Shown piece by piece: positions 46,755 to 54,634 of a stretch of 54,634 nt of DNA. The notes below the pieces were generated by a model. The model searched no databases, had not been told where the DNA came from, and saw only the letters and a list, made by a program, of their open reading frames with translations. The stretch comes from Thermoproteus sp. (GTDB lineage: Archaea; Thermoproteota; Thermoprotei; Thermoproteales; Thermoproteaceae). The stretch lies in NCBI GenBank assembly GCA_049976425.1, contig JBMFIG010000009.1, positions 1 through 54,634 of the forward strand, given 5' to 3'. The position numbers and the translations under genes were made by a program. Each line of letters starts with the position of its first letter. The first letter of the stretch is position 1.

Positions 46755-47303
46755 CTAGCGCGGCCGGGCGGCGACAAGCCACCTCTCCAGCCCCCGCGCC
46801 CTCTCGACAGCCCTCTCGGCGCTTTCCCTCAGCCTTTTGTAAAGCCTACGCCGGTCCTCCCCACACGCCGGAGCCAGCTTCTCGGCGATAGACAGAAGGG
46901 CGGAGGCCGAGTACTCGGCCCGGTAGAAGCCGAAAGGCGTCTTGAGGACCAACAAGCCCCCGCGCACCTCCACCTCGACGGGGCACCTCTCGGCCGGCCC
47001 CAAGGCGGCCAGAGCCCTCCCGGTGAGCCTGTAGACCACGCGCCGCCTCCCCCTGACGTCCCTCACCCCCTTGTCGAGCATGCCCAGCTCCACGGCGATC
47101 CCCAGCAGGTACTCGACCCCGCCCCCGTAGATCCCCTCCAGACGCTCCAGAGGCGCCTCCCCGCCCAACGCCGCCACGGCCTTGACCAGACGCCACACGG
47201 AGCCCAGGTTCACCAGCTCCACACGAGGCCGCCAACACGGGCCTATATCAGCTACGGTGATCGCGGAGACAGTAGAGGGAGAGTTCACAGGAAGTATCGG
47301 CAA
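46755..47303 (-). CDS. Hypothetical protein with winged-helix-like N-terminal half (start uncertain)
   Basis: LERLEGIYGGGVEYLLGIAVELGML.KG...RRRVVYRLT wHTH-like pattern. Confidence 0.6.
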   Translation of the reverse strand: MPILPVNSPSTVSAITVADIGPCWRPRVELVNLGSVWRLVKAVAALGGEAPLERLEGIYGGGVEYLLGIAVELGMLDKGVRDVRGRRRVVYRLTGRALAALGPAERCPVEVEVRGGLLVLKTPFGFYRAEYSASALLSIAEKLAPACGEDRRRLYKRLRESAERAVERARGLERWLVAARPR

Positions 47304-47366
47304 GGCGGCCCCCGTCCGCGTACCCCCTAGATACCGGCCGCCCCTTCGGCGGGATCCGCCGCCAGT

Positions 47367-48842
47367 CTAGCCGGACAACAGTTGCGCTGTCCGGCCCTCC
47401 CTGCACAGATCGCCCAGCTCGACGGTCGAGCCCCTCACCCTCACCGCAGACCTGCCGTATAACTTCTCGGTCCTCTCCGCAAAGGCGTCGACGCAGTCCG
47501 CCCTAATGGCCTTGGCGCAAGCCTCGTCGACTCCCGCCAGGATCTCCCTGACGATGGCCTTGAAAGCCGCGGATCTTACGAGCTCGCTCCTGGTAGGCCT
47601 CGGCTTCTCTCTGAAGATCTCCCGTAGCTTTTCGCAGAACGCCGGCTGTTTGGGCTCGGGTTTCTTCAAGCCGATCTTCTGGAGGACCTCAGCCGCAATG
47701 GCCCTGGCCATTATGGCCAACACCCCGCGGTAGACGTCGTCTCCGCGGTTCCTGAGATGCGCGAGTCCCTGCACGAGCTGGTGCACGTCGGCCCTTACGT
47801 GTATCTCGTTCTTGACGCCTACGGGCTCTGGGGATATCGTGACGTAGATCGTATCGCAACCGGCGTGTTGGAGGACGTTGACCCCTCTCGCGTCGGCCCT
47901 CACCTTCACCTCTATACACCTTCCGTCGTCTGTGTACACGTCCGGCCTGCTAGGTCCCTGGTACCTCCCCTCCTTTACGTTGCTCCGAATCGCGTTCACC
48001 ACGGCATCGTGTAGCTCCCGCTCAACCTGCACGTCGGCCGCCCGCTTCTTTGCCCCTTCGGACGCCCCGAACACAAAAGTTATCACATGCCTGAAGTTGT
48101 AGCCGCTCCTCAACATCTCGACGCCGGTCTGCGCTACGAAGCGGTCGAGCTGGACTCCGCAAGCCAGCCTCCTGACAAACTCCTCGGCATCCTTCTCGAA
48201 GCCAGGCGCCAGCGCAATTCTGTCAAACCACCTCACGACGTGGTACTTCTCGAGCGCTCCGCGCCCCACGCGGCTCAGGAACGAGTTCCAGTCCCCTTGG
48301 TAGTGCGCTGTTATTACTACGTGGGTCGCGAACCCCGGCATTTCGGCGAGCCTCTTAAGCATGATCTCGGTTTCTTTGGCCAATTTGCTGTCGTTGCCCA
48401 GAGAGTCAAGCGGATACTCGTCCAAGAGAACCAACAGATGTATCTGCCTCTCCAACGCCACAGCCGCGGCCTGGAGGACGTAGAGGACGCAGACGGGGTC
48501 CTTACACCCGACGTCCCTCCCCAACACATCGTGTATCCACCTGTATACGGCCGAACCGAGCTTGTACTCGAGCTGTTCGGCGAACTCAGACGCTTTCTGG
48601 GGATCGCCCTGCATCTGCTCCAGCACGGTGGGCCACCGCCTGCCGTATTCCGACGCGAGCTGGTAGAGGAGGTACGTCTTGCCGCTACCCGGCGGAGCCG
48701 CCACCACGACCAGAGAGAGCTGGCCCTCCTCCATGTACGCGGAGACCGCGTTGTAGACGTCGGTAACCAGCTTGCCGAACTGGCTCACGAACTGCTCGTA
48801 CTGCAGGAGGCCAGATATGCTGTAAGGCGGCGGGCAACGCAT
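47367..48842 (-). CDS. P-loop (AAA/STAND-like) ATPase fused to a PD-(D/E)xK nuclease-like domain
   Basis: Walker A APPGSGKT, Walker B LLVLLDE, later RPDVYTDDGRCIEVK; ATG 48842 follows the upstream stop (ORF extends to 48893). Confidence 0.75.
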   Translation of the reverse strand: MRCPPPYSISGLLQYEQFVSQFGKLVTDVYNAVSAYMEEGQLSLVVVAAPPGSGKTYLLYQLASEYGRRWPTVLEQMQGDPQKASEFAEQLEYKLGSAVYRWIHDVLGRDVGCKDPVCVLYVLQAAAVALERQIHLLVLLDEYPLDSLGNDSKLAKETEIMLKRLAEMPGFATHVVITAHYQGDWNSFLSRVGRGALEKYHVVRWFDRIALAPGFEKDAEEFVRRLACGVQLDRFVAQTGVEMLRSGYNFRHVITFVFGASEGAKKRAADVQVERELHDAVVNAIRSNVKEGRYQGPSRPDVYTDDGRCIEVKVRADARGVNVLQHAGCDTIYVTISPEPVGVKNEIHVRADVHQLVQGLAHLRNRGDDVYRGVLAIMARAIAAEVLQKIGLKKPEPKQPAFCEKLREIFREKPRPTRSELVRSAAFKAIVREILAGVDEACAKAIRADCVDAFAERTEKLYGRSAVRVRGSTVELGDLCREGRTAQLLSG

Positions 48843-48847
48843 GCGCC

Positions 48848-49330
48848 TCAACACCAGGGAGGCGAGTGGACCAAATAGCCTCCGTACGCCCACACAACCG
48901 CCGCGGGGAACCCGCTCGCCACAGCCTTGGCGTCGGGATCGTCCGGAGGGAGCCTGCCCCCATCGGCCTTCAGCCAGGCCCGTATATAGCTGTCGAGGAC
49001 CTCCTCAGGCACGCCCTTCCTCAATGCGGCCGCCCTTATCAAGTCCTCGGCCTGCCTATACGCTCTCCTAATCTCCTCGTCAAGCCCGGCCACGTCCAGC
49101 GCATGGCAACCGAAGAGCTGGACGGCCATCACCAAGGCGCGGCCCCCTATCCTCGCGCTGACAGCCTCGGCGTTCCCCACCCTCCACCTCTTCCTGACAG
49201 CCGCGTTGGCGATCAGATCCTCGGCCGCCGACCTGGCGACCCTAGCCGACAGAGGCCGTCCGTTGGGGGTCGGCAGATACGCGACAACAGTAGCGCTCCT
49301 CTTCCTAAGATAGATCACCAATGTGTACAC
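48848..49330 (-). CDS. Hypothetical protein
   Basis: 160 aa; first gene of an apparent 3-gene minus-strand cassette; TTTTAT box upstream. Confidence 0.65.
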   Translation of the reverse strand: MYTLVIYLRKRSATVVAYLPTPNGRPLSARVARSAAEDLIANAAVRKRWRVGNAEAVSARIGGRALVMAVQLFGCHALDVAGLDEEIRRAYRQAEDLIRAAALRKGVPEEVLDSYIRAWLKADGGRLPPDDPDAKAVASGFPAAVVWAYGGYLVHSPPWC

Positions 49331-49895: not shown

Positions 49896-49990
49896 TGGAG
49901 CCCCGGCCGGGACGTTCGGGGACGCCCCTTTCGAACCCGGGACCTCTCGCTTACCAAGCGAGCGCTCCAACCAGGCTGAGCTACCGGGGC
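49896..49990 (-). tRNA. tRNA-Thr(GGT) with a 17-nt intron at position 59/60 (49913-49929), CCA encoded
   Basis: Acceptor GCCCCGG/CCGGGGC-T-CCA, D arm GCTC..GAGC, anticodon arm CTCGC-TTGGTAA-GCGAG, T arm CCGGG-TTCGAA^T-CCCGG; BHB with central helix TTCG/CGAA. Confidence 0.96.
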
Positions 49991-50408
49991 CCCAACGGCA
50001 CAAGACAGCCGAGTATTAATTTTTTAGCCTTCTGGCATATCAGCGCTCGGAGACTGGCCTCGGCTGTGGACGGCCGCCGGACCTGTGCCGGAAGCTGACA
50101 CTACTTGCGTGCGGCCCAAGGCGAAGAGGTGGGGAGGACATGAGAAAAAGTTGCTGATGGCCGCAGAAGCCGCCAAAACCTGCATCGAGGTGATCAGGCG
50201 GACTCACCGACGACCCCATAGACGTAGCCCTAGATGGAGCTGGCACACACGTAACGTCTATAAAAGTAGAGGACTAAAGATGCAGTTAAGCTAATTCTAG
50301 ACGCTCCTATACTGATTTATCAAGAATTTTTATATATAAATCTCTATATAAATACGATAAATTTCAAAAATTTGAGGGATTCTTTTCACTGCCTGATATG
50401 CTGATGTG

Positions 50409-51602
50409 TTAGAAATTGAGCACGCGTCTTAGCCTTTCACGTGCCCTCTTGTCTGACTCGTATGGATCCTCCGTCTCTGCGGGATCTACTCTTATGAGGT
50501 GTAGATTTCTACCGTCGCGTAGATGTAGCGTTGCAACGCCTTCTTTCTCCATATACCTATAGAGCTCTGCAATGCTTCTCTCCTCGTCGTCTAGTGGCGT
50601 CCCCTCAATCGCAGGGAAGATCAAAATACCGGCGTCAGCCGAGTACTCGTACATATAGGCCATTGTCTTAAATCTGCCCAAGGCGATGTAGGAAGGTGAT
50701 GTGGAGAATTTTGTCTCCACCACAATCCTTACATCGCCGTCTTCTACAAAGACGTCAGGCCTCCCCCGGTGCAGTCTGGCGTCATTGCCGTTGTATCTCT
50801 CCACCAGGGAAGAGGTCAGCGGTTTGTTGAAGTAAATTAGGATACACTTGTTACCCTTCTTGAGGGTGAGATCCGGCTCGTCGGCTCCGGCTCTAGGACA
50901 CGCCGTTTCCTCGAATCCCGCGTTTTTGAACACATCGTAGATGAGGAAGTATGTGTATACCTCGTAAAGCCTCCAGTCGCGGAATACTACCTCTTCACCT
51001 AACCCAGCGGCGCGTCCGATCTTTACGGATCTTTCCAATGCCTTTACAAACCTATTGATTAAACACGCTCTGCGTAGCCACTCTATGTATTCAACATCTC
51101 CGCATTCCAAACTAGTCGTCCCGCTTGGGAAATGGCGCAGGAGTCTAGCTATTCCTTCCAAGAGCCTCGCCACCTCTTCGTCCCCGGCGGCCATGCGCCT
51201 CGCGGCGTTGAGCGCCTCTCTCGCTACACGCCGCATTAGCAGATACTCGGGCGCGTGTCTAGACGGGAGATAGGTGAGCGACGCGACTAGACGCGACGGC
51301 CTTACCGCAATACTCCTAGCGACGTCGATAGCCCCTTCTAGATCCGCGCCGTACACCACGCCGAATTCGCGGTAGACGAGTTTTTCTCTCAGCGCTCTCT
51401 CAACCTCAATCCTCAGAAGGCTCAACGCGTATTTTAAAGCCTCTAGGGCTAGGTCCTTAAAAGAAGCGGCGAGCGCCTCCTCCTCGTCGGCTCTGCGCAT
51501 TAGGCTTTCTATTATCTTGATGTCGGGCTGGCGATAGTAACGGAAGTATCTACGCCCTACCAACAGACCGAGGTTGCGCCTCCTTATCTCAGTCTTGTTC
51601 AC
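50409..51602 (-). CDS. mcrC: McrC-like PD-(D/E)xK nuclease subunit
   Basis: G.IDV.RS, LYEVYTY, RPDVFV....IVVETKF, K.MAYM; immediately downstream of mcrB. Confidence 0.8.
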   Translation of the reverse strand: MNKTEIRRRNLGLLVGRRYFRYYRQPDIKIIESLMRRADEEEALAASFKDLALEALKYALSLLRIEVERALREKLVYREFGVVYGADLEGAIDVARSIAVRPSRLVASLTYLPSRHAPEYLLMRRVAREALNAARRMAAGDEEVARLLEGIARLLRHFPSGTTSLECGDVEYIEWLRRACLINRFVKALERSVKIGRAAGLGEEVVFRDWRLYEVYTYFLIYDVFKNAGFEETACPRAGADEPDLTLKKGNKCILIYFNKPLTSSLVERYNGNDARLHRGRPDVFVEDGDVRIVVETKFSTSPSYIALGRFKTMAYMYEYSADAGILIFPAIEGTPLDDEERSIAELYRYMEKEGVATLHLRDGRNLHLIRVDPAETEDPYESDKRARERLRRVLNF

Positions 51603-51605
51603 GCC

Positions 51606-53000
51606 CTAGCGGTGTCCTCTTCCTAGGAGGTACTCCTTACTTCCCAACATCGCGTTTATGACCGTCTTCGCATCGACTCTCCCTCTGTCGAGATTTTTCA
51701 AGAGCTTTAGCGCGGCGATTACCGCCGCAGGCGGCACGCAACCGCCTAGCTCCTCCACCGCTTTCCTAATCTCCTGTTTTACCTCCTCAGGTCCATCGAC
51801 TCTGTCGATATAGGAGTCTACTTCTGGACACTCTGTCTTAACTATTACAAATCGCCGGAGGAAAGCCTCGCCGGTAAGGAAGAGGTTTCTCCAATCTTTT
51901 ATGTTCATAGTGGCTATAACCCTAATAAGTCTCAATGGTAAGTCCTTATATTTTCTATAATATTTGACAAACTTTTTTGAATCGTCGTCTACTTTATCGC
52001 CGTAGGCCTCGATTTCCTCTACTAGGCTTATTGGGATGCTCCAGTCGTCGCAGAGCTGAGTGCGAAATATTGCGAAAAGATCGGCGAATGCCTTATCGAT
52101 GTCGGCTCTGTTTACCTCGTCGAGTATAAGGAACACGGGTTCAGACAAGCCCCTCTCCAGCATCTCAGCCGCCATGTTATAAGCCTTTATGAAAAGCCCA
52201 GACCTCCAGAACACGCCGTCTGGCCCAAGAGACTCCCCGCCTATTACGTCCCTGCGGAACCAGAGAGAATGGGCCACGGCGATGATGTGGTTACGACTGC
52301 CTGGCGCCGCGGCTAACTCAGCAATTCTCTTGGCGAGAGCGGTCTTGCCAGTGCCGGGCGGCCCGGCGAGAAGGACATTTCCCGCCTCCAACGCCCCGAG
52401 GAGCAGGTCTAGGTCAACTGTCTTGGCAAAGAATTCTTCGCGTAGCCTCTCTCCTAACTTCCTAATACCGCTGAGGGGGCACTCAACACTTCTTGTGTGA
52501 CTGGCCACGTAACCGACGGACTGGGCGAGTTCCGCTATTTTTTCAACCAATCTGCAGTCTATTACTTCGAGAGACCCCTGGAACGTGGGGAATTCAATTC
52601 CTTTGCCGTACTCAGCCTCGGGAAGCCACAGCCTCGCCTTAATGAAAAACTTGTAATCCCAGCCGGTGCCCTTGGGCCAATAGTCGCATTTACACTCTCC
52701 AATAAGATCCTCCTCACTTACCTCCCCTACGAGCACAACCCTCCTGCCCAACTCGCTTCTCCTACGATCATCCGGCTTCTGCGATACCCCAATTACATTT
52801 ACGCTACCTGCTTCCACTACCTTTCTTTCTAGCTCTTCGTAAAGTTCTCTCCTCCCAAACCCCCACAGAACTACTCCCGCTTTCTTCTTCTCGATTTTTT
52901 GCTTGCAGTTCTCTGGACATCCCAAACTCAAACTGTCTCTATTGATGTCATTAAGCGAGTGGTACCAGTTCTCATATGCGCCTTGGATCACGAAACACAT
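51606..53000 (-). CDS. mcrB: McrB-like AAA+ GTPase with N-terminal EVE/PUA-like domain
   Basis: GPPGTGKT, ILDEVNRADIDKAF, IATMNIKD (NxxD), AFLRRF; N-term ENW...LWG...YWP..W.YKF.I. Confidence 0.88.
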   Translation of the reverse strand: MCFVIQGAYENWYHSLNDINRDSLSLGCPENCKQKIEKKKAGVVLWGFGRRELYEELERKVVEAGSVNVIGVSQKPDDRRRSELGRRVVLVGEVSEEDLIGECKCDYWPKGTGWDYKFFIKARLWLPEAEYGKGIEFPTFQGSLEVIDCRLVEKIAELAQSVGYVASHTRSVECPLSGIRKLGERLREEFFAKTVDLDLLLGALEAGNVLLAGPPGTGKTALAKRIAELAAAPGSRNHIIAVAHSLWFRRDVIGGESLGPDGVFWRSGLFIKAYNMAAEMLERGLSEPVFLILDEVNRADIDKAFADLFAIFRTQLCDDWSIPISLVEEIEAYGDKVDDDSKKFVKYYRKYKDLPLRLIRVIATMNIKDWRNLFLTGEAFLRRFVIVKTECPEVDSYIDRVDGPEEVKQEIRKAVEELGGCVPPAAVIAALKLLKNLDRGRVDAKTVINAMLGSKEYLLGRGHR

Positions 53001-53030
53001 AATCTGAATTAAATACGGGATGTTATATAT

Positions 53031-53954
53031 ATGAGGCCAGAGGCGTGGTTAACTAGAGAGGTCGCGCCCGGAATCACCCTAAAAGATCTCGCCTGGGCGC
53101 TTTACAGAACGGGGGCGTACCGGCCGCCGACAACTGAGTCGGAAATGATAGCTCTGCGCAAGATTCAGGTAAGGACTGCCGAGGGCCTAGGCAGAGGCCT
53201 TTCCAGAATAGTCCCCAAAATGCCCTACTCGCTCGGTAATAGAAAGATAGGTAACATCTGGAGCTTTGATCTCCCGCCCGTATTGACGTGTCCCTACGCC
53301 ACCTTTTGCGGCAGGTCTGGACCCCAAGGACTTTACAAAGGTAAAGGTTATATATGTTATGATTTAAACACTGCACGTTATAGCAAGCAACACCTCCTAC
53401 GCGAATATCTAAACTATATCCATATAGTGAAGGAAGGCTACGAGTGGCTGAGCGGCTGGACTAAGTTTGTGGTGCACAACCGCGGCGCGCGGATCATACG
53501 ACTGCATGTGGGCGGTGATATCTTTTCGGCGTGGTACTGGGATTTTTTAAAAAGGCTGGCGGGGGAGTTCCCCACCACAACTTTTTACCTATATACACGA
53601 TCCTTCCCAATAATTGCGGCATCTCCAGAGAGGCCCAAAAACCTCGTTGTCCTCATGTCGCTTGACGCGGCCAACTTCAGCTATCTAAATAAGTATGGCG
53701 AGTATTTCGATAACATAACCTATCTGCTGGCTGGAGAGGAGGCCGAGGCTCAGATTCCGTTGATCAGAAAAGCCGCTGAGTGGGCGGAGAAGAGGGGGAA
53801 AAGGCTTGTAGTTTTCCTAGAGCATAGTAGGAGAAAAAGTCTCATAAAGAAGATGGGGACTTTGAAAAAATATATATGTCCTAATGAGATGGGCATAGGG
53901 TTGACGTGTGAAAAATGTAGAATATGTTTCACAAAAAGCTCTAACCATCTGTGA
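53031..53954 (+). CDS. GP88-like Fe-S / radical-SAM-like protein
   Basis: GNRKI....SFDLPP..TCP..C...CY, IRLHVGGDIF, FYLYTRS, P.NL.V.MS.D, C-terminal Cx9Cx2Cx2C. Confidence 0.7.
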   Translation: MRPEAWLTREVAPGITLKDLAWALYRTGAYRPPTTESEMIALRKIQVRTAEGLGRGLSRIVPKMPYSLGNRKIGNIWSFDLPPVLTCPYATFCGRSGPQGLYKGKGYICYDLNTARYSKQHLLREYLNYIHIVKEGYEWLSGWTKFVVHNRGARIIRLHVGGDIFSAWYWDFLKRLAGEFPTTTFYLYTRSFPIIAASPERPKNLVVLMSLDAANFSYLNKYGEYFDNITYLLAGEEAEAQIPLIRKAAEWAEKRGKRLVVFLEHSRRKSLIKKMGTLKKYICPNEMGIGLTCEKCRICFTKSSNHL

Positions 53955-54169
53955 AGTTGAATACTATCTTCGTCGCCTCGTATTTTCACCATCAATAAAT
54001 AACCTACCGGAACCGATCACCACTGCGGTGGGCATGTTTGAACAACCTCTATATACATCGGTCGGCTGCGTGCCGGATATTACCAGCGGTGTGCGGACAG
54101 CGGAGCGCACGTCATAGTAGTAATTAAATCTACTATGTATCTCCTACTGCTTTTAAATAAGGTCTATAT

Positions 54170-54460
54170 GTGGAGCTGTCAAAGCCGTGGCTTGACTTAG
54201 AGGGGTATAAAAAGACGCGGATGCTGGAGGCCGAATACGAGGCTGAGCTGGCGGAGAGGTTTCTCCGACAGGGCCTTGTCAGAAACGCCGCTGGCAAGGC
54301 GTTCCAGGCGTGGAAGGCCTTGATGGGCGCCATGCTTGCCGACAAGGTCGCTGAGCTGGAGCGGCTCTACCCAGGCTCCGTGGAGATCAGAGAGGGGAGG
54401 AGGGTTAAAAAGGCCTATTGGATACTCGCCTTAGTCCCCATCGCGCCTCCGAAGGACTGC
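54170..54460 (+). pseudogene. PaREP1 (HEPN-like) gene, frameshifted/truncated
   Basis: KPW.DL..YK..R..EA.YEAELA..FL..GL.RNAAGKAFQAWKA; after ALVP the family-like SRLR continues in another frame and similarity is then lost. Confidence 0.75.
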
Positions 54461-54634
54461 GGGCCGCTGGGTCGGCACCATATGTCAATGAGCCGTCTTT
54501 TCTCAGCCGTACGTATCGTGGACGTTTGGCGGGAGGGGGACAAGCACGCTGTTAAGGCTAGGCGGGCGAGGTCTTGAAGCGGCATTCTTCACATAGGTAT
54601 ACGTGGTCGTGGGGCAACCCCCTAGACTTGAGAC

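What the first reader, a model, noticed from the sequence alone, without database searches (positions are those of the whole stretch)
50409..53954. McrBC with an EVE-like reader, head-to-head with a GP88-like Fe-S/radical-SAM gene: candidate new restriction/modification-type system
Seen: mcrB and mcrC are coupled on the minus strand. Only 30 nt (53001-53030, containing TATA-like runs) separate the mcrB ATG from a divergent 307-aa gene. That gene has Cx5Cx15C and Cx9Cx2Cx2C motifs plus the RLH.GGD / YTRS / NL...S.D pattern I associate with the phage GP88 family. All three genes look more AT-rich than the host genes. Established: McrBC are modification-dependent (type IV) restriction enzymes, and archaeal McrBs use EVE/YTH-type N-terminal readers. 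Inference: the Fe-S protein may be a co-regulated component that modifies DNA or nucleotides, marks or protects self, or senses invaders. I know of no described defence system with this composition.
Basis: partly seen in the sequence, partly recalled or inferred. Interest (0 to 1): 0.8.

Follow-up and report, generated by a model that had tools for sequence, protein, structure and literature searches.

The report
McrBC restriction cassette with GP88 partner
Hot-spring archaea carry a small mobile DNA-defence cassette that pairs a McrBC-type cutter, which reads modified bases, with an unstudied iron-sulfur enzyme from a phage protein family; I found no description of this combination.

Summary
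At 50409-53954 lie a McrC-like PD-(D/E)xK nuclease, a McrB AAA+ protein and, 30 nt away on the other strand, a GP88-family protein (PF17338, 3e-25). The McrB N-terminus has an EVE/YTH fold (Z up to 11.5). GP88 has a radical-SAM-type partial barrel (top 20 hits are radical SAM enzymes, Z 8.1-10.9) with seven invariant cysteines but no canonical CX3CX2C.

The three genes form one unit:
- All 20 other loci holding this GP88 subfamily (5 genomes, 15 metagenome contigs) have McrB next to it, divergent.
- The spacer is 28-30 nt in the 10 loci read.
- An 88%-identical 3.85-kb block with exactly these genes sits in another genus in a different neighbourhood. It has low GC, and all three genes are under purifying selection.

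The link is not universal:
- A second GP88 subfamily lies among aromatic amino-acid genes.
- Sister-family McrBC pairs lack GP88.
- Two lineages keep intact McrBC with GP88 absent or truncated.

GP88 is therefore a dedicated but dispensable accessory. My best guess is that it edits nucleic acid to keep self DNA out of McrBC's reach. This is untested. It is a new variant of type IV restriction. I found no paper describing it, and the scan had not noted it on other DNA.

The parts
50116..50408 (.). Tail of the transferred block downstream of mcrC. It holds a frameshifted remnant (50133-50256, + strand) of the 3' end of an argB/lysZ-like kinase gene, followed by an AT-rich stretch.
   Evidence: blastn: window 50116-53959 is 88% identical to L034 and to L039. 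tblastn of the intact 259-aa neighbour of mcrC in L034 matches 50133-50195 and 50194-50256 in two frames.
50409..51602 (-). McrC-like subunit, 397 aa, with a C-terminal PD-(D/E)xK nuclease core (residues about 280-300, nt 50703-50765).
   Evidence: ORF. Invariant G280 P282 D283 K298 in 14 homologues. Profile hit to the PD-(D/E)xK protein 4ic1, 4.7e-5. Atlas feature hits to clusters carrying PDDEXK_7 and DUF2357 (0.91). No Pfam hit for this sequence.
51606..52478 (-). McrB AAA+ motor part (residues about 175-464; AAA_5 at 208-384).
   Evidence: Pfam AAA_5 2.6e-12. E. coli McrB is the best PDB sequence hit. Walker A, Walker B and signature loop align with E. coli McrB.
52506..53000 (-). McrB N-terminal reader domain (residues 1 to about 165), EVE/YTH-type fold, with four invariant cysteines (C28, C32, C103, C105) and invariant aromatic residues.
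   Evidence: AF2 model pLDDT 83.7. VIA-align hits: PH1033 Z 11.5, YTH domains Z 10-11, archaeal McrB N-domains Z 8.5 and 7.3. Alignment of 13 orthologues.
53001..53030 (.). 30-nt divergent spacer with two A/T-rich TATA-like boxes. It is the presumed back-to-back promoter region.
   Evidence: Sequence. The spacer is 28-30 nt with A/T boxes in the same places in the 10 loci read. No transcript data were available.
53031..53219 (+). N-terminal extension of GP88 subfamily A (residues 1-63): a small helical domain, possibly DNA-binding.
   Evidence: Secondary structure of the model, pLDDT 81-98. The extension is present only in subfamily A rows of alignment A1. No Pfam family even at E 10.
53220..53954 (+). 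GP88 core (residues 64-307): radical-SAM-type partial barrel, Cys cluster 1 (C87, C93, C109; nt 53289-53357), GGD motif, C-terminal Cys cluster (C283, C293, C296, C299; nt 53877-53927).
   Evidence: PF17338 3e-25. AF2 model pLDDT 92.2. VIA-align top hits QueE Z 10.9, SuiB 10.2, viperin 10.2, SPL 9.9. Invariant residues.

Best explanation
The three genes form one mobile type IV (McrBC-type) restriction cassette.

Shown:
- McrB joins an EVE/YTH-fold reader to a McrB-type AAA+ motor.
- The coupled downstream gene carries a PD-(D/E)xK nuclease core.
- A GP88-family protein with a radical-SAM-type fold and two invariant Cys clusters is always placed head-to-head with mcrB across a 28-30-nt spacer.
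- The trio is inherited and horizontally transferred as a block.

Inferred:
- McrB hexamers load on DNA through the reader domain, which recognises a modified base, and McrC cuts, as in E. coli and Thermococcus McrBC.
- GP88 binds a [4Fe-4S] cluster, probably uses SAM, and acts on nucleic acid.
- Its extra N-terminal helical domain binds DNA and may also set the balance of the two back-to-back promoters.

Most likely role (about 0.3 on its own): GP88 is the cassette's immunity factor. A modification-dependent nuclease could then settle in a genome that carries such marks. This role would explain three things: GP88 is dispensable in some hosts, it never occurs without McrBC, and it is more conserved than McrBC.
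For: Linkage:
- 5 of 5 genome loci and 15 of 15 metagenome loci with subfamily-A GP88 have McrB adjacent and divergent.
- McrC is seen in 5 of 5 and 12 of 15. The other 3 contigs end before its position.
- Flanks differ between loci.
- The spacer is 28-30 nt in the 10 loci read.

Unit of transfer:
- The 88% DNA identity to a copy in another genus (G023, genus g3; the window is genus g1) stops 5 nt after the GP88 stop and about 290 nt past mcrC.
- The block carries a remnant of the donor-side neighbour gene.
- Module GC is 0.51 against 0.61-0.62 in both hosts.

All three genes look functional: dN/dS is 0.10, 0.14 and 0.22.

Folds and motifs:
- Reader fold.
- GP88 fold. All seven Cys plus R157, H159, G161, G162 and D163 are invariant.
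- McrB motifs.

Support for the accessory and immunity reading:
- GP88 is more conserved than its partners: 61-64% against 40-48% (McrB) and 37-47% (McrC) in the same loci.
- Intact McrBC exists without a whole GP88 (G024; L052 and L053). No subfamily-A GP88 was found without McrB (0 of 20).
- Viral relatives include GP88 domains inside 995-1211-aa phage proteins.
- Unchecked scan notes report a GP88-ParB-MT-A70 fusion and GP88 domains in injected giant proteins.
Against: - No biochemical, transcript or modification data exist for any copy.
- GP88 lacks the canonical CX3CX2C. No member hit Pfam Radical_SAM among the 25 families listed for 50 members. Foldseek against the PDB gave no hit at E <= 0.001. 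SAM chemistry is therefore inferred from fold only.
- All linked loci come from one archaeal family (hits in 12 of 401 phylum genomes, all in family f1). Many metagenome contigs may be the same few organisms, so the 20 loci are not 20 independent events.
- The sister GP88 subfamily sits in an aromatic amino-acid gene cluster. That hints at small-molecule rather than DNA chemistry for the family.
- Related two-gene McrBC pairs work without any third gene.
- McrC membership rests on position and a nuclease motif. Pfam McrC models did not match.
Confidence: 0.45

Rival explanations
1. Classical restriction-modification logic. GP88 is an essential protective modification enzyme, and this McrBC cuts DNA that lacks the GP88 mark, as in the LlaJI/LlaI/BsuMI-type McrBC-like restriction subunits that are paired with modification genes.
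For: - The layout is a divergent modifier and nuclease with a short control region.
- The modifier is more conserved than the nuclease.
- The modifier carries an extra N-terminal helical domain.
- A preprint abstract listed describes non-canonical three-gene McrBC homologues that target DNA site-specifically.
Against: - Intact mcrB and mcrC persist where GP88 is absent (G024) or truncated after about residue 201 (L052, L053). Such a loss would be lethal under this logic.
- Decay is seen on the GP88 side, never on the nuclease side, of the GP88-bearing cassettes. This is the opposite of what restriction-modification pairs show.
Confidence: 0.12
2. No direct functional link. GP88 is an independent defence or metabolic gene, for example a viperin-like maker of modified nucleotides, that merely travels with McrBC in a compact island.
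For: - Defence genes cluster. CRISPR arrays and a Cas6 gene lie next to the trio in some loci.
- McrBC works as a two-gene system in the sister family.
- GP88 subfamily B has a non-defence context.
- One earlier scan note found a GP88-like gene to be an accidental neighbour in a phage (unchecked).
Against: - Adjacency is strict, with a fixed 28-30-nt head-to-head spacer, across GP88 identities of 61-92% and McrB identities of 40-92%.
- The transferred block ends exactly at the three genes.
- This GP88 subfamily and this McrB reader domain were found together and nowhere apart, apart from the two losses.
- GP88-A was never seen alone (0 of 20).
Confidence: 0.17
3. GP88 acts on protein or on transcription rather than on DNA bases. 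It would be either a radical-SAM maturase that modifies McrB (whose reader has four invariant Cys) or McrC, or mainly a redox- or SAM-sensing regulator of the shared promoter.
For: - Several top fold hits are peptide- or protein-modifying radical SAM enzymes with auxiliary clusters: SuiB, SkfB, PqqE, anSME, PFL activase.
- GP88 has a C-terminal four-Cys cluster.
- GP88 has an N-terminal helical extension next to the promoter spacer.
- McrB-N has four invariant Cys.
Against: - If McrBC needed maturation, McrBC would decay once GP88 is lost. Yet the mcrB and mcrC ORFs are intact in G024 and in L052/L053.
- The N-terminal extension matches no DNA-binding family.
Confidence: 0.12
4. Mark-and-cut. 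GP88 installs a modification on invading DNA, chosen through its N-terminal domain or through DNA state. The McrB reader then recognises that mark and McrC cuts.
For: - The reader domain and this GP88 subfamily occur only together.
Against: - No feature that would spare host DNA is visible.
- McrBC without GP88 would be useless, yet it is kept intact in two lineages.
Confidence: 0.08

Closest known systems
Canonical McrBC type IV restriction (E. coli K-12 McrBC; Thermococcus gammatolerans McrBC with a YTH-like reader)
   Same: - A McrB AAA+ motor with aligned Walker A, Walker B and signature loop.
- An N-terminal base-reading domain of EVE/YTH fold that matches archaeal McrB N-domains (Z 8.5 and 7.3).
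- A coupled downstream PD-(D/E)xK gene.
   Different: - A conserved third gene (GP88) sits head-to-head with mcrB.
- The McrC-like protein matches no Pfam McrC model.
- The NCBIfam McrB equivalog score is far below its cut-off (42 against 637 bits).
Three-gene McrBC-like restriction systems LlaI/LlaJI and BsuMI (known to me from the abstract in the listing only)
   Same: A McrBC-type motor and nuclease is extended by further genes and paired with modification functions.
   Different: Those systems use methyltransferases and a separate DNA-binding subunit. Loss of GP88 appears to be tolerated.
GP88 (PF17338), DUF7227 and DUF5131 (Gp37/Gp68) phage protein families
   Same: - A curated GP88 hit.
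- 21 of 50 family members also touch DUF7227, and 3 of 50 touch DUF5131.
- BFVD fold hits are GP88-domain viral proteins, with a Gp37/Gp68-like protein at rank 20.
   Different: - This subfamily has an extra 63-residue N-terminal domain and a 15-residue insert between the second and third Cys.
- It is chromosomal and cassette-borne, and is tied to McrBC.
- The family itself has no known function. No paper held 'PF17338'.
Radical SAM enzymes acting on nucleotides or DNA (QueE, viperin, spore photoproduct lyase)
   Same: They are the best structural matches over residues 64-306: Z 10.9, 10.2 and 9.9. A three-Cys loop follows the first strand, and a GGD motif sits where radical SAM enzymes have GGE. 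The comparison of the GGD motif with GGE is from my own recall.
   Different: There is no CX3CX2C and no Pfam Radical_SAM hit. Sequence identity to these structures is 10-13%. The chemistry is unknown.
CoCoNuT and other McrBC variants in the census of Bell et al. 2024 (PMC11090510)
   Same: McrBC cores with swapped reader domains and added accessory genes.
   Different: The main text holds no 'GP88', 'radical SAM', 'Fe-S', 'iron-sulfur' or 'Thermoprote' (find mode).

Membership tests
McrB (AAA+ GTPase subunit of McrBC) | AAA+ domain with Walker A, Walker B and the McrB signature loop | tested here: met
   AAA_5 2.6e-12. BLASTP against E. coli McrB gives E 2e-17, with the three motifs in register. 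E. coli McrB is the top PDB sequence hit.
McrB (AAA+ GTPase subunit of McrBC) | NCBIfam equivalog NF008457 score above its cut-off | tested here: not met
   42 bits against a cut-off of 637. It is a distant family member, not the E. coli equivalog.
McrB (AAA+ GTPase subunit of McrBC) | GTP-dependent hexamer stimulated by McrC | not testable with these tools
   Needs biochemistry.
EVE/YTH (PUA-like) modified-base readers | The fold | tested here: met
   Model pLDDT 83.7. PH1033 Z 11.5, YTH domains Z 10-11, THYN1 8.3, archaeal McrB N-domains 8.5 and 7.3, then a drop to below 5 after rank 22. Foldseek lists the same families, but none at E <= 0.001.
EVE/YTH (PUA-like) modified-base readers | Sequence match to a Pfam EVE or YTH model | tested here: not met
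   No such family among the Pfam hits at E <= 0.1. Atlas feature hits stay below 0.9.
EVE/YTH (PUA-like) modified-base readers | Aromatic pocket that binds a modified base | tested here: inconclusive
   W12, W46, Y107, W108, W114 and F118 are invariant in 13 orthologues.
McrC | Gene directly downstream of mcrB and coupled to it | tested here: met
   A 3-nt gap here. The same order holds in all loci where the contig reaches it.
McrC | C-terminal PD-(D/E)xK nuclease | tested here: met
   Invariant P282, D283 and K298. Profile hit to 4ic1 over the motif, 4.7e-5.
McrC | Match to McrC models (PF10117, PF09823 DUF2357, PF04411) or to solved McrC | tested here: inconclusive
   Of 14 homologues, none hit at E <= 0.01 and one touches PDDEXK_7 at 0.087. 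hhalign against E. coli McrC gives probability 5% and E 0.0075, aligned on the nuclease motif only. Atlas feature hits include PDDEXK_7 and DUF2357 clusters at 0.91.
GP88 (PF17338) | Score above Pfam's gathering cut-off | tested here: met
   89.8 bits against 24.4, covering profile positions 22-229 of 230.
Radical SAM superfamily | Partial (beta/alpha)6 barrel | tested here: met
   Model pLDDT 92.2. The 20 best VIA-align rows (Z 8.1-10.9) are radical SAM enzymes. 19 are so by entry title or common knowledge; AbmM is so by my recall.
Radical SAM superfamily | CX3CX2C cluster motif | tested here: not met
   The motif here is Cx5Cx15C. Typical family rows show Cx6Cx3C followed by Tyr.
Radical SAM superfamily | Sequence match to Pfam Radical_SAM | tested here: not met
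   It is not among the 25 families listed for 50 members at E <= 1 (27 matched).
Radical SAM superfamily | [4Fe-4S] cluster and reductive SAM cleavage | not testable with these tools
   Needs anaerobic purification, EPR and a 5'-deoxyadenosine assay.
Known anti-phage systems in PADLOC-DB 2.0 | Model hits for all components | tested here: not met
   GP88 has 0 families. The McrC-like protein has only LmuA at 0.022. McrB has only weak P-loop hits.

The most novel reading that the evidence does not exclude
GP88 is a radical-SAM-type enzyme that writes or rewrites a DNA base modification, and the EVE/YTH reader of its partner McrB is tuned to that chemistry. The cassette would then be a new kind of modification-and-restriction pair built on radical chemistry instead of methyl transfer. 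It would also give the first function for the phage GP88, DUF7227 and DUF5131 group, as DNA-modifying anti-restriction enzymes.
Probability: 0.2. Interest if true: 0.85.

Novelty: new variant of a known kind. Interest (0 to 1): 0.6.

Why it matters
McrBC is the textbook modification-dependent restriction enzyme, and large censuses have catalogued its reader domains and partners. A conserved radical-SAM-fold partner is not among those I could find.

The finding gives a testable context for GP88. This family has 452 representative clusters at E <= 0.001 in a library of 1.84 billion proteins and no known function. It is spread through bacterial and archaeal viruses, sometimes inside giant phage proteins.

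If GP88 acts on DNA, it points to an unknown DNA modification in hyperthermophilic archaea and their viruses. It would also show how a modification-dependent nuclease can be made safe for a new host. If GP88 does not act on DNA, the cassette is still a clean example of a three-gene defence unit moving between archaeal genera.

Tried and rejected
- Binding test. Complex prediction on the McrB N-domain (A4) with GP88 (A2) gave no answer (score 0.00, controls not run). It counts neither way.
- Expression. The look-up of sequencing runs listed no RNA holder, only hot-spring DNA runs with shares of 0.33 or less.
P0006, P0007 and P0009 lie on contigs of 1.4-2 kb, so whether homologues of 41-52% identity also sit by McrBC could not be tested.
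- Collection scans for relatives. The genome-contig scan with A2 gave only two loci. The viral-contig scan with A2 gave none. tblastn of the plasmid collection gave no match.
- Phage context. tblastn found relatives in 71 phage records, 68 of them Streptomyces phages. The two neighbourhoods I read are rows of hypothetical proteins near genome ends and told me nothing.
- Bacterial context. PF17338 was found in 9 of 401 genomes of one bacterial phylum, 6 above the cut-off. I did not analyse those 8 new loci. In the seven distant metagenome loci and L036, tblastn with my McrB and McrC found nothing. These contigs are short and the test is insensitive.
- Attachment sites. No convincing direct or inverted repeats flank the block.
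- N-terminal extension of GP88. No Pfam family matched even at E 10. 'HTH-like' is only my reading of the helix pattern.
- Foldseek against the PDB. No hit at E <= 0.001 for either model. The fold assignments rest on VIA-align.
- Tree. The careful search did not finish, so I used the quick tree. Subfamilies A and B are each a clade (98 and 100). Their sister relation has SH-aLRT 83 only. All 55 rows were kept.
- scan_promoters_terminators was not used, because it models bacterial sigma-70 promoters.
- Literature. 'PF17338' is in 0 papers. 'GP88 family' has 0 occurrences in the 15 listed of 2,034 papers. The 'gp88' hits are gene numbers of unrelated phages (titles and abstracts seen). The main texts of PMC11090510, PMC7641849, PMC5512222 and 10.1101/2025.09.30.679545 were searched in find mode only and hold no GP88. 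Searches found no paper linking radical SAM or GP88 with McrBC. Supplements were closed, and those of PMC11090510 may bear on novelty.

Full report
WHAT IS THERE

The window is a whole 54,634-bp contig of a 96-contig genome.
- 50409-51602(-), 397 aa.
- 51606-53000(-), 464 aa, separated from the first by 3 nt.
- 53031-53954(+), 307 aa, across a 30-nt gap.

GC falls from about 0.62 to 0.47-0.53 over these genes. The module has GC 0.509, against 0.618 for window 1-50000. A tRNA lies just beyond, at 49934-49990(-) (Rfam, 29.8 bits), and a PaREP1 gene follows at 54170-54577.

THE THREE PROTEINS

McrB (464 aa).
- It has an AAA_5 domain (2.6e-12).
- Its best matches among solved structures are E. coli McrB (1.9e-12) and Thermococcus gammatolerans McrB.
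- BLASTP against E. coli McrB gives 26% identity over 254 residues (E 2e-17), with Walker A, Walker B, the McrB signature loop and a following RRF in register.
- It is far below the NCBIfam equivalog cut-off (42 against 637 bits). It is a distant McrB, not the E. coli type.

McrB N-terminal domain (about 165 residues).
- It matches no Pfam family.
- A model built on 13 orthologues (pLDDT 83.7) aligns best with PH1033 (Z 11.5), eukaryotic YTH domains (Z 10-11), the Staphylothermus McrB N-domain (8.5), THYN1 bound to 5mC DNA (8.3) and the Thermococcus McrB N-domain (7.3). Scores fall below 5 after rank 22.
- The domain has four invariant cysteines and a set of invariant aromatic residues.

McrC-like protein (397 aa).
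- It gives no Pfam or PDB hit on its own.
- An alignment of 14 homologues shows an invariant PD...K core. Its profile hits the PD-(D/E)xK protein 4ic1 (4.7e-5).
- Language-model features point to clusters carrying PDDEXK_7 and DUF2357, the McrC architecture (0.91).
- Pfam McrC models do not match any of the 14 homologues at E <= 0.01. hhalign against E. coli McrC is weak (probability 5%).
- I call it McrC-like by position, coupling and nuclease motif.

GP88 (307 aa).
- It is a secure GP88-family member (PF17338, 89.8 bits).
- The family has 452 representative clusters at E <= 0.001 in 1.84 billion proteins and no function.
- A model on 50 sequences is confident (pLDDT 92.2).
- Foldseek finds nothing at E <= 0.001 in the PDB.
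- VIA-align over 48,161 chains ranks radical SAM enzymes in all of the top 20 places, over residues 64-306: QueE 10.9, SuiB 10.2, viperin 10.2, spore photoproduct lyase 9.9, NifB 9.6, MoaA 9.1, and so on down to Z 8.1.
- The strand and helix order in the model fits a radical SAM core: a strand, then the three-Cys loop, a long helix, then a strand ending in GGD. The comparison with the GGE motif of radical SAM enzymes is from my own recall.
- The cysteine spacing is not canonical: Cx5Cx15C here, and Cx6Cx3C in typical family rows.
- A second cluster, Cx9Cx2Cx2C, closes the protein. All seven Cys are invariant in the subfamily.
- At sequence level the family touches DUF7227 (21 of 50 members) and DUF5131/Gp37-Gp68 (3 of 50), not Pfam Radical_SAM.
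- Viral fold relatives are GP88-domain proteins of bacterial and archaeal viruses. Some are 995-1211 aa long. A Gp37/Gp68-like protein appears at rank 20.
- This subfamily has an extra 63-residue helical N-terminal domain that matches no family.

IS THE JUXTAPOSITION CHANCE?

No.
- PF17338 occurs in 14 of 61 related genomes, all in one family (13 of 28 there plus the window's own genome, 0 of 30 and 0 of 2 in the two sister families).
- In 401 genomes sampled across the phylum, it occurs in 12, all in that same family.
- tblastn on 16 loci splits them into two groups. Five have GP88 at 61-91% identity, and all five have McrB and McrC beside it. Eleven have GP88 at 23-34% identity, and none has them.
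- A metagenome scan added 15 loci at 60-92% identity. McrB is adjacent in 15 of 15 (three are cut by contig ends). McrC is present in 12 of 15; the other three contigs end first.
- The flanks differ between the genome loci: CRISPR/Cas6 in two, arginine/lysine-type biosynthesis genes in one, others elsewhere.
- The mcrB-GP88 spacer is 28-30 nt with two A/T boxes in the same places in all 10 loci I read. In two of these, GP88 must start at a GTG for the count to hold.

The strongest single result is the block comparison.
- Window 50116-53959 is 88% identical in DNA to a locus in a genome of another genus and to a metagenome contig.
- The identity ends 5 nt after the GP88 stop codon.
- At the other end, the block carries a frameshifted remnant of the last 43 or so codons of the kinase gene that lies intact beside mcrC in that other genome.
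- The block is low in GC in both hosts (0.51 against 0.61).
- All three genes show purifying selection between the two copies: dN/dS 0.10, 0.14 and 0.22.
- So the trio, and only the trio, moved as a unit. The kinase remnant suggests that the window's copy came from a context like the other genome's.

LIMITS OF THE LINK

- Subfamily B of GP88 sits in a conserved chromosomal cluster between a dehydroquinase-chorismate mutase fusion, an aminotransferase and a GHMP kinase. This is a non-defence setting.
- In the sister family, eight loci have related McrB (35-49% identity by tblastn over the motor, with other N-terminal domains) and McrC as a two-gene pair with no GP88.
- One genome of the same family (93% complete) has intact McrB (472 aa, same reader) and McrC (418 aa). 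In place of GP88 there is a 430-nt gap and then a CRISPR array of at least 64 repeats. PF17338 finds nothing anywhere in that assembly.
- Two metagenome contigs, probably one lineage, have GP88 cut off after about residue 201 next to intact mcrBC.
- One genome has a second, inverted McrC plus an N-terminally truncated McrB without GP88, about 7 kb from its complete trio.
- No subfamily-A GP88 was seen without McrB (0 of 20).
- All of this comes from one archaeal family, and the metagenome contigs are not independent of the genomes.

HOW IT MOST LIKELY WORKS

The McrBC part should work like known McrBC. This is inference from family membership.

For GP88, the pattern is 'always with McrBC, more conserved than McrBC (61-64% against 37-48%), yet losable while McrBC stays intact'. 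That pattern speaks against a classical protective methylase-like role, where such a loss would kill. It also speaks against a maturase that McrBC cannot do without, and against mere hitchhiking.

It fits an accessory whose value depends on the host. My preferred reading is as follows.
- GP88 is a phage-type nucleic-acid-modifying enzyme kept as the cassette's immunity factor.
- It is co-expressed from the back-to-back promoters.
- Its N-terminal domain may bind DNA or the spacer.

Unchecked notes from this scan report GP88 domains fused to ParB and MT-A70 domains, and GP88 domains inside injected giant phage proteins. My BFVD result on protein lengths agrees with the second point. Both fit DNA-directed action. 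The aromatic amino-acid context of subfamily B pulls the other way.

I put about 0.85 on the trio being a functional unit, about 0.7 on GP88 being an Fe-S, radical-SAM-like enzyme, and about 0.3 on the immunity role specifically.

COMPARISON AND NOVELTY

It works like, and its core belongs to, McrBC type IV restriction with an EVE/YTH reader, as in archaeal McrBs. The added, conserved radical-SAM-fold partner is what differs.
- PADLOC has no model for GP88.
- No paper held the Pfam accession.
- The McrBC census and EVE papers do not mention GP88, or a radical SAM partner of McrBC, in their main texts. Supplements were closed.
- Radical SAM enzymes known in defence from the papers I saw (Ophion, passages seen; HXS, abstract only) have other partners.

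I rate it a new variant of a known kind. It is of fair interest but narrow in distribution and without any experimental handle yet.

Noticed in passing
window 49896-49990 (-): tRNA-Thr (anticodon GGT by my reading) that ARAGORN missed and Rfam scores just above threshold for 49934-49990 only. The 3' acceptor strand lies at 49900-49906. This implies an insert of about 17 nt in the T-loop region, a non-canonical intron position.
   Followed up: partly
window 46755-49330 (-): Three co-oriented genes (182, 508 and 160 aa) on the far side of the tRNA. The 508-aa protein gives only weak P-loop/STAND hits (nSTAND_NTPase5 2.7e-4) and no PADLOC system. A homologue of the 182-aa protein lies at the edge of metagenome locus L040, which also holds a trio.
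   Followed up: partly
L019-L028, L033 (for example L021:7597-8466): GP88 subfamily B is a conserved chromosomal gene in 11 loci of the related genus. It sits between a type I dehydroquinase-chorismate mutase fusion, a class I/II aminotransferase and a GHMP (shikimate-type) kinase. It could be a radical-SAM-fold enzyme of aromatic amino-acid metabolism.
   Followed up: partly
L036:1464-10197: In a bacterial MAG, a 609-aa protein has GP88 at its N-terminus (2.5e-32) fused to about 370 unassigned residues. Its neighbours are a WGR-PARP protein and a 748-aa HATPase_c_3 (GHKL) protein. This looks like another conflict-system setting for GP88.
   Followed up: partly
L031 and L117 (G017:C1:324226-335493): One genome has the full trio plus a second copy about 7 kb away in inverted orientation. 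The second copy has an intact McrC (409 aa) and a McrB that lacks the reader domain (312 aa). A 777-aa protein of no Pfam family lies between them.
   Followed up: partly
L116:11208-15387; L029 and L030 flanks: CRISPR arrays and a Cas6 gene lie directly beside the McrBC or trio loci in three genomes. This suggests a shared defence hotspot.
   Followed up: no
window 52506-53000 (-): The EVE/YTH-type reader of McrB carries four invariant cysteines (Cx3C ... CxC). They suggest a metal site not described, as far as I recall, for McrB readers.
   Followed up: no
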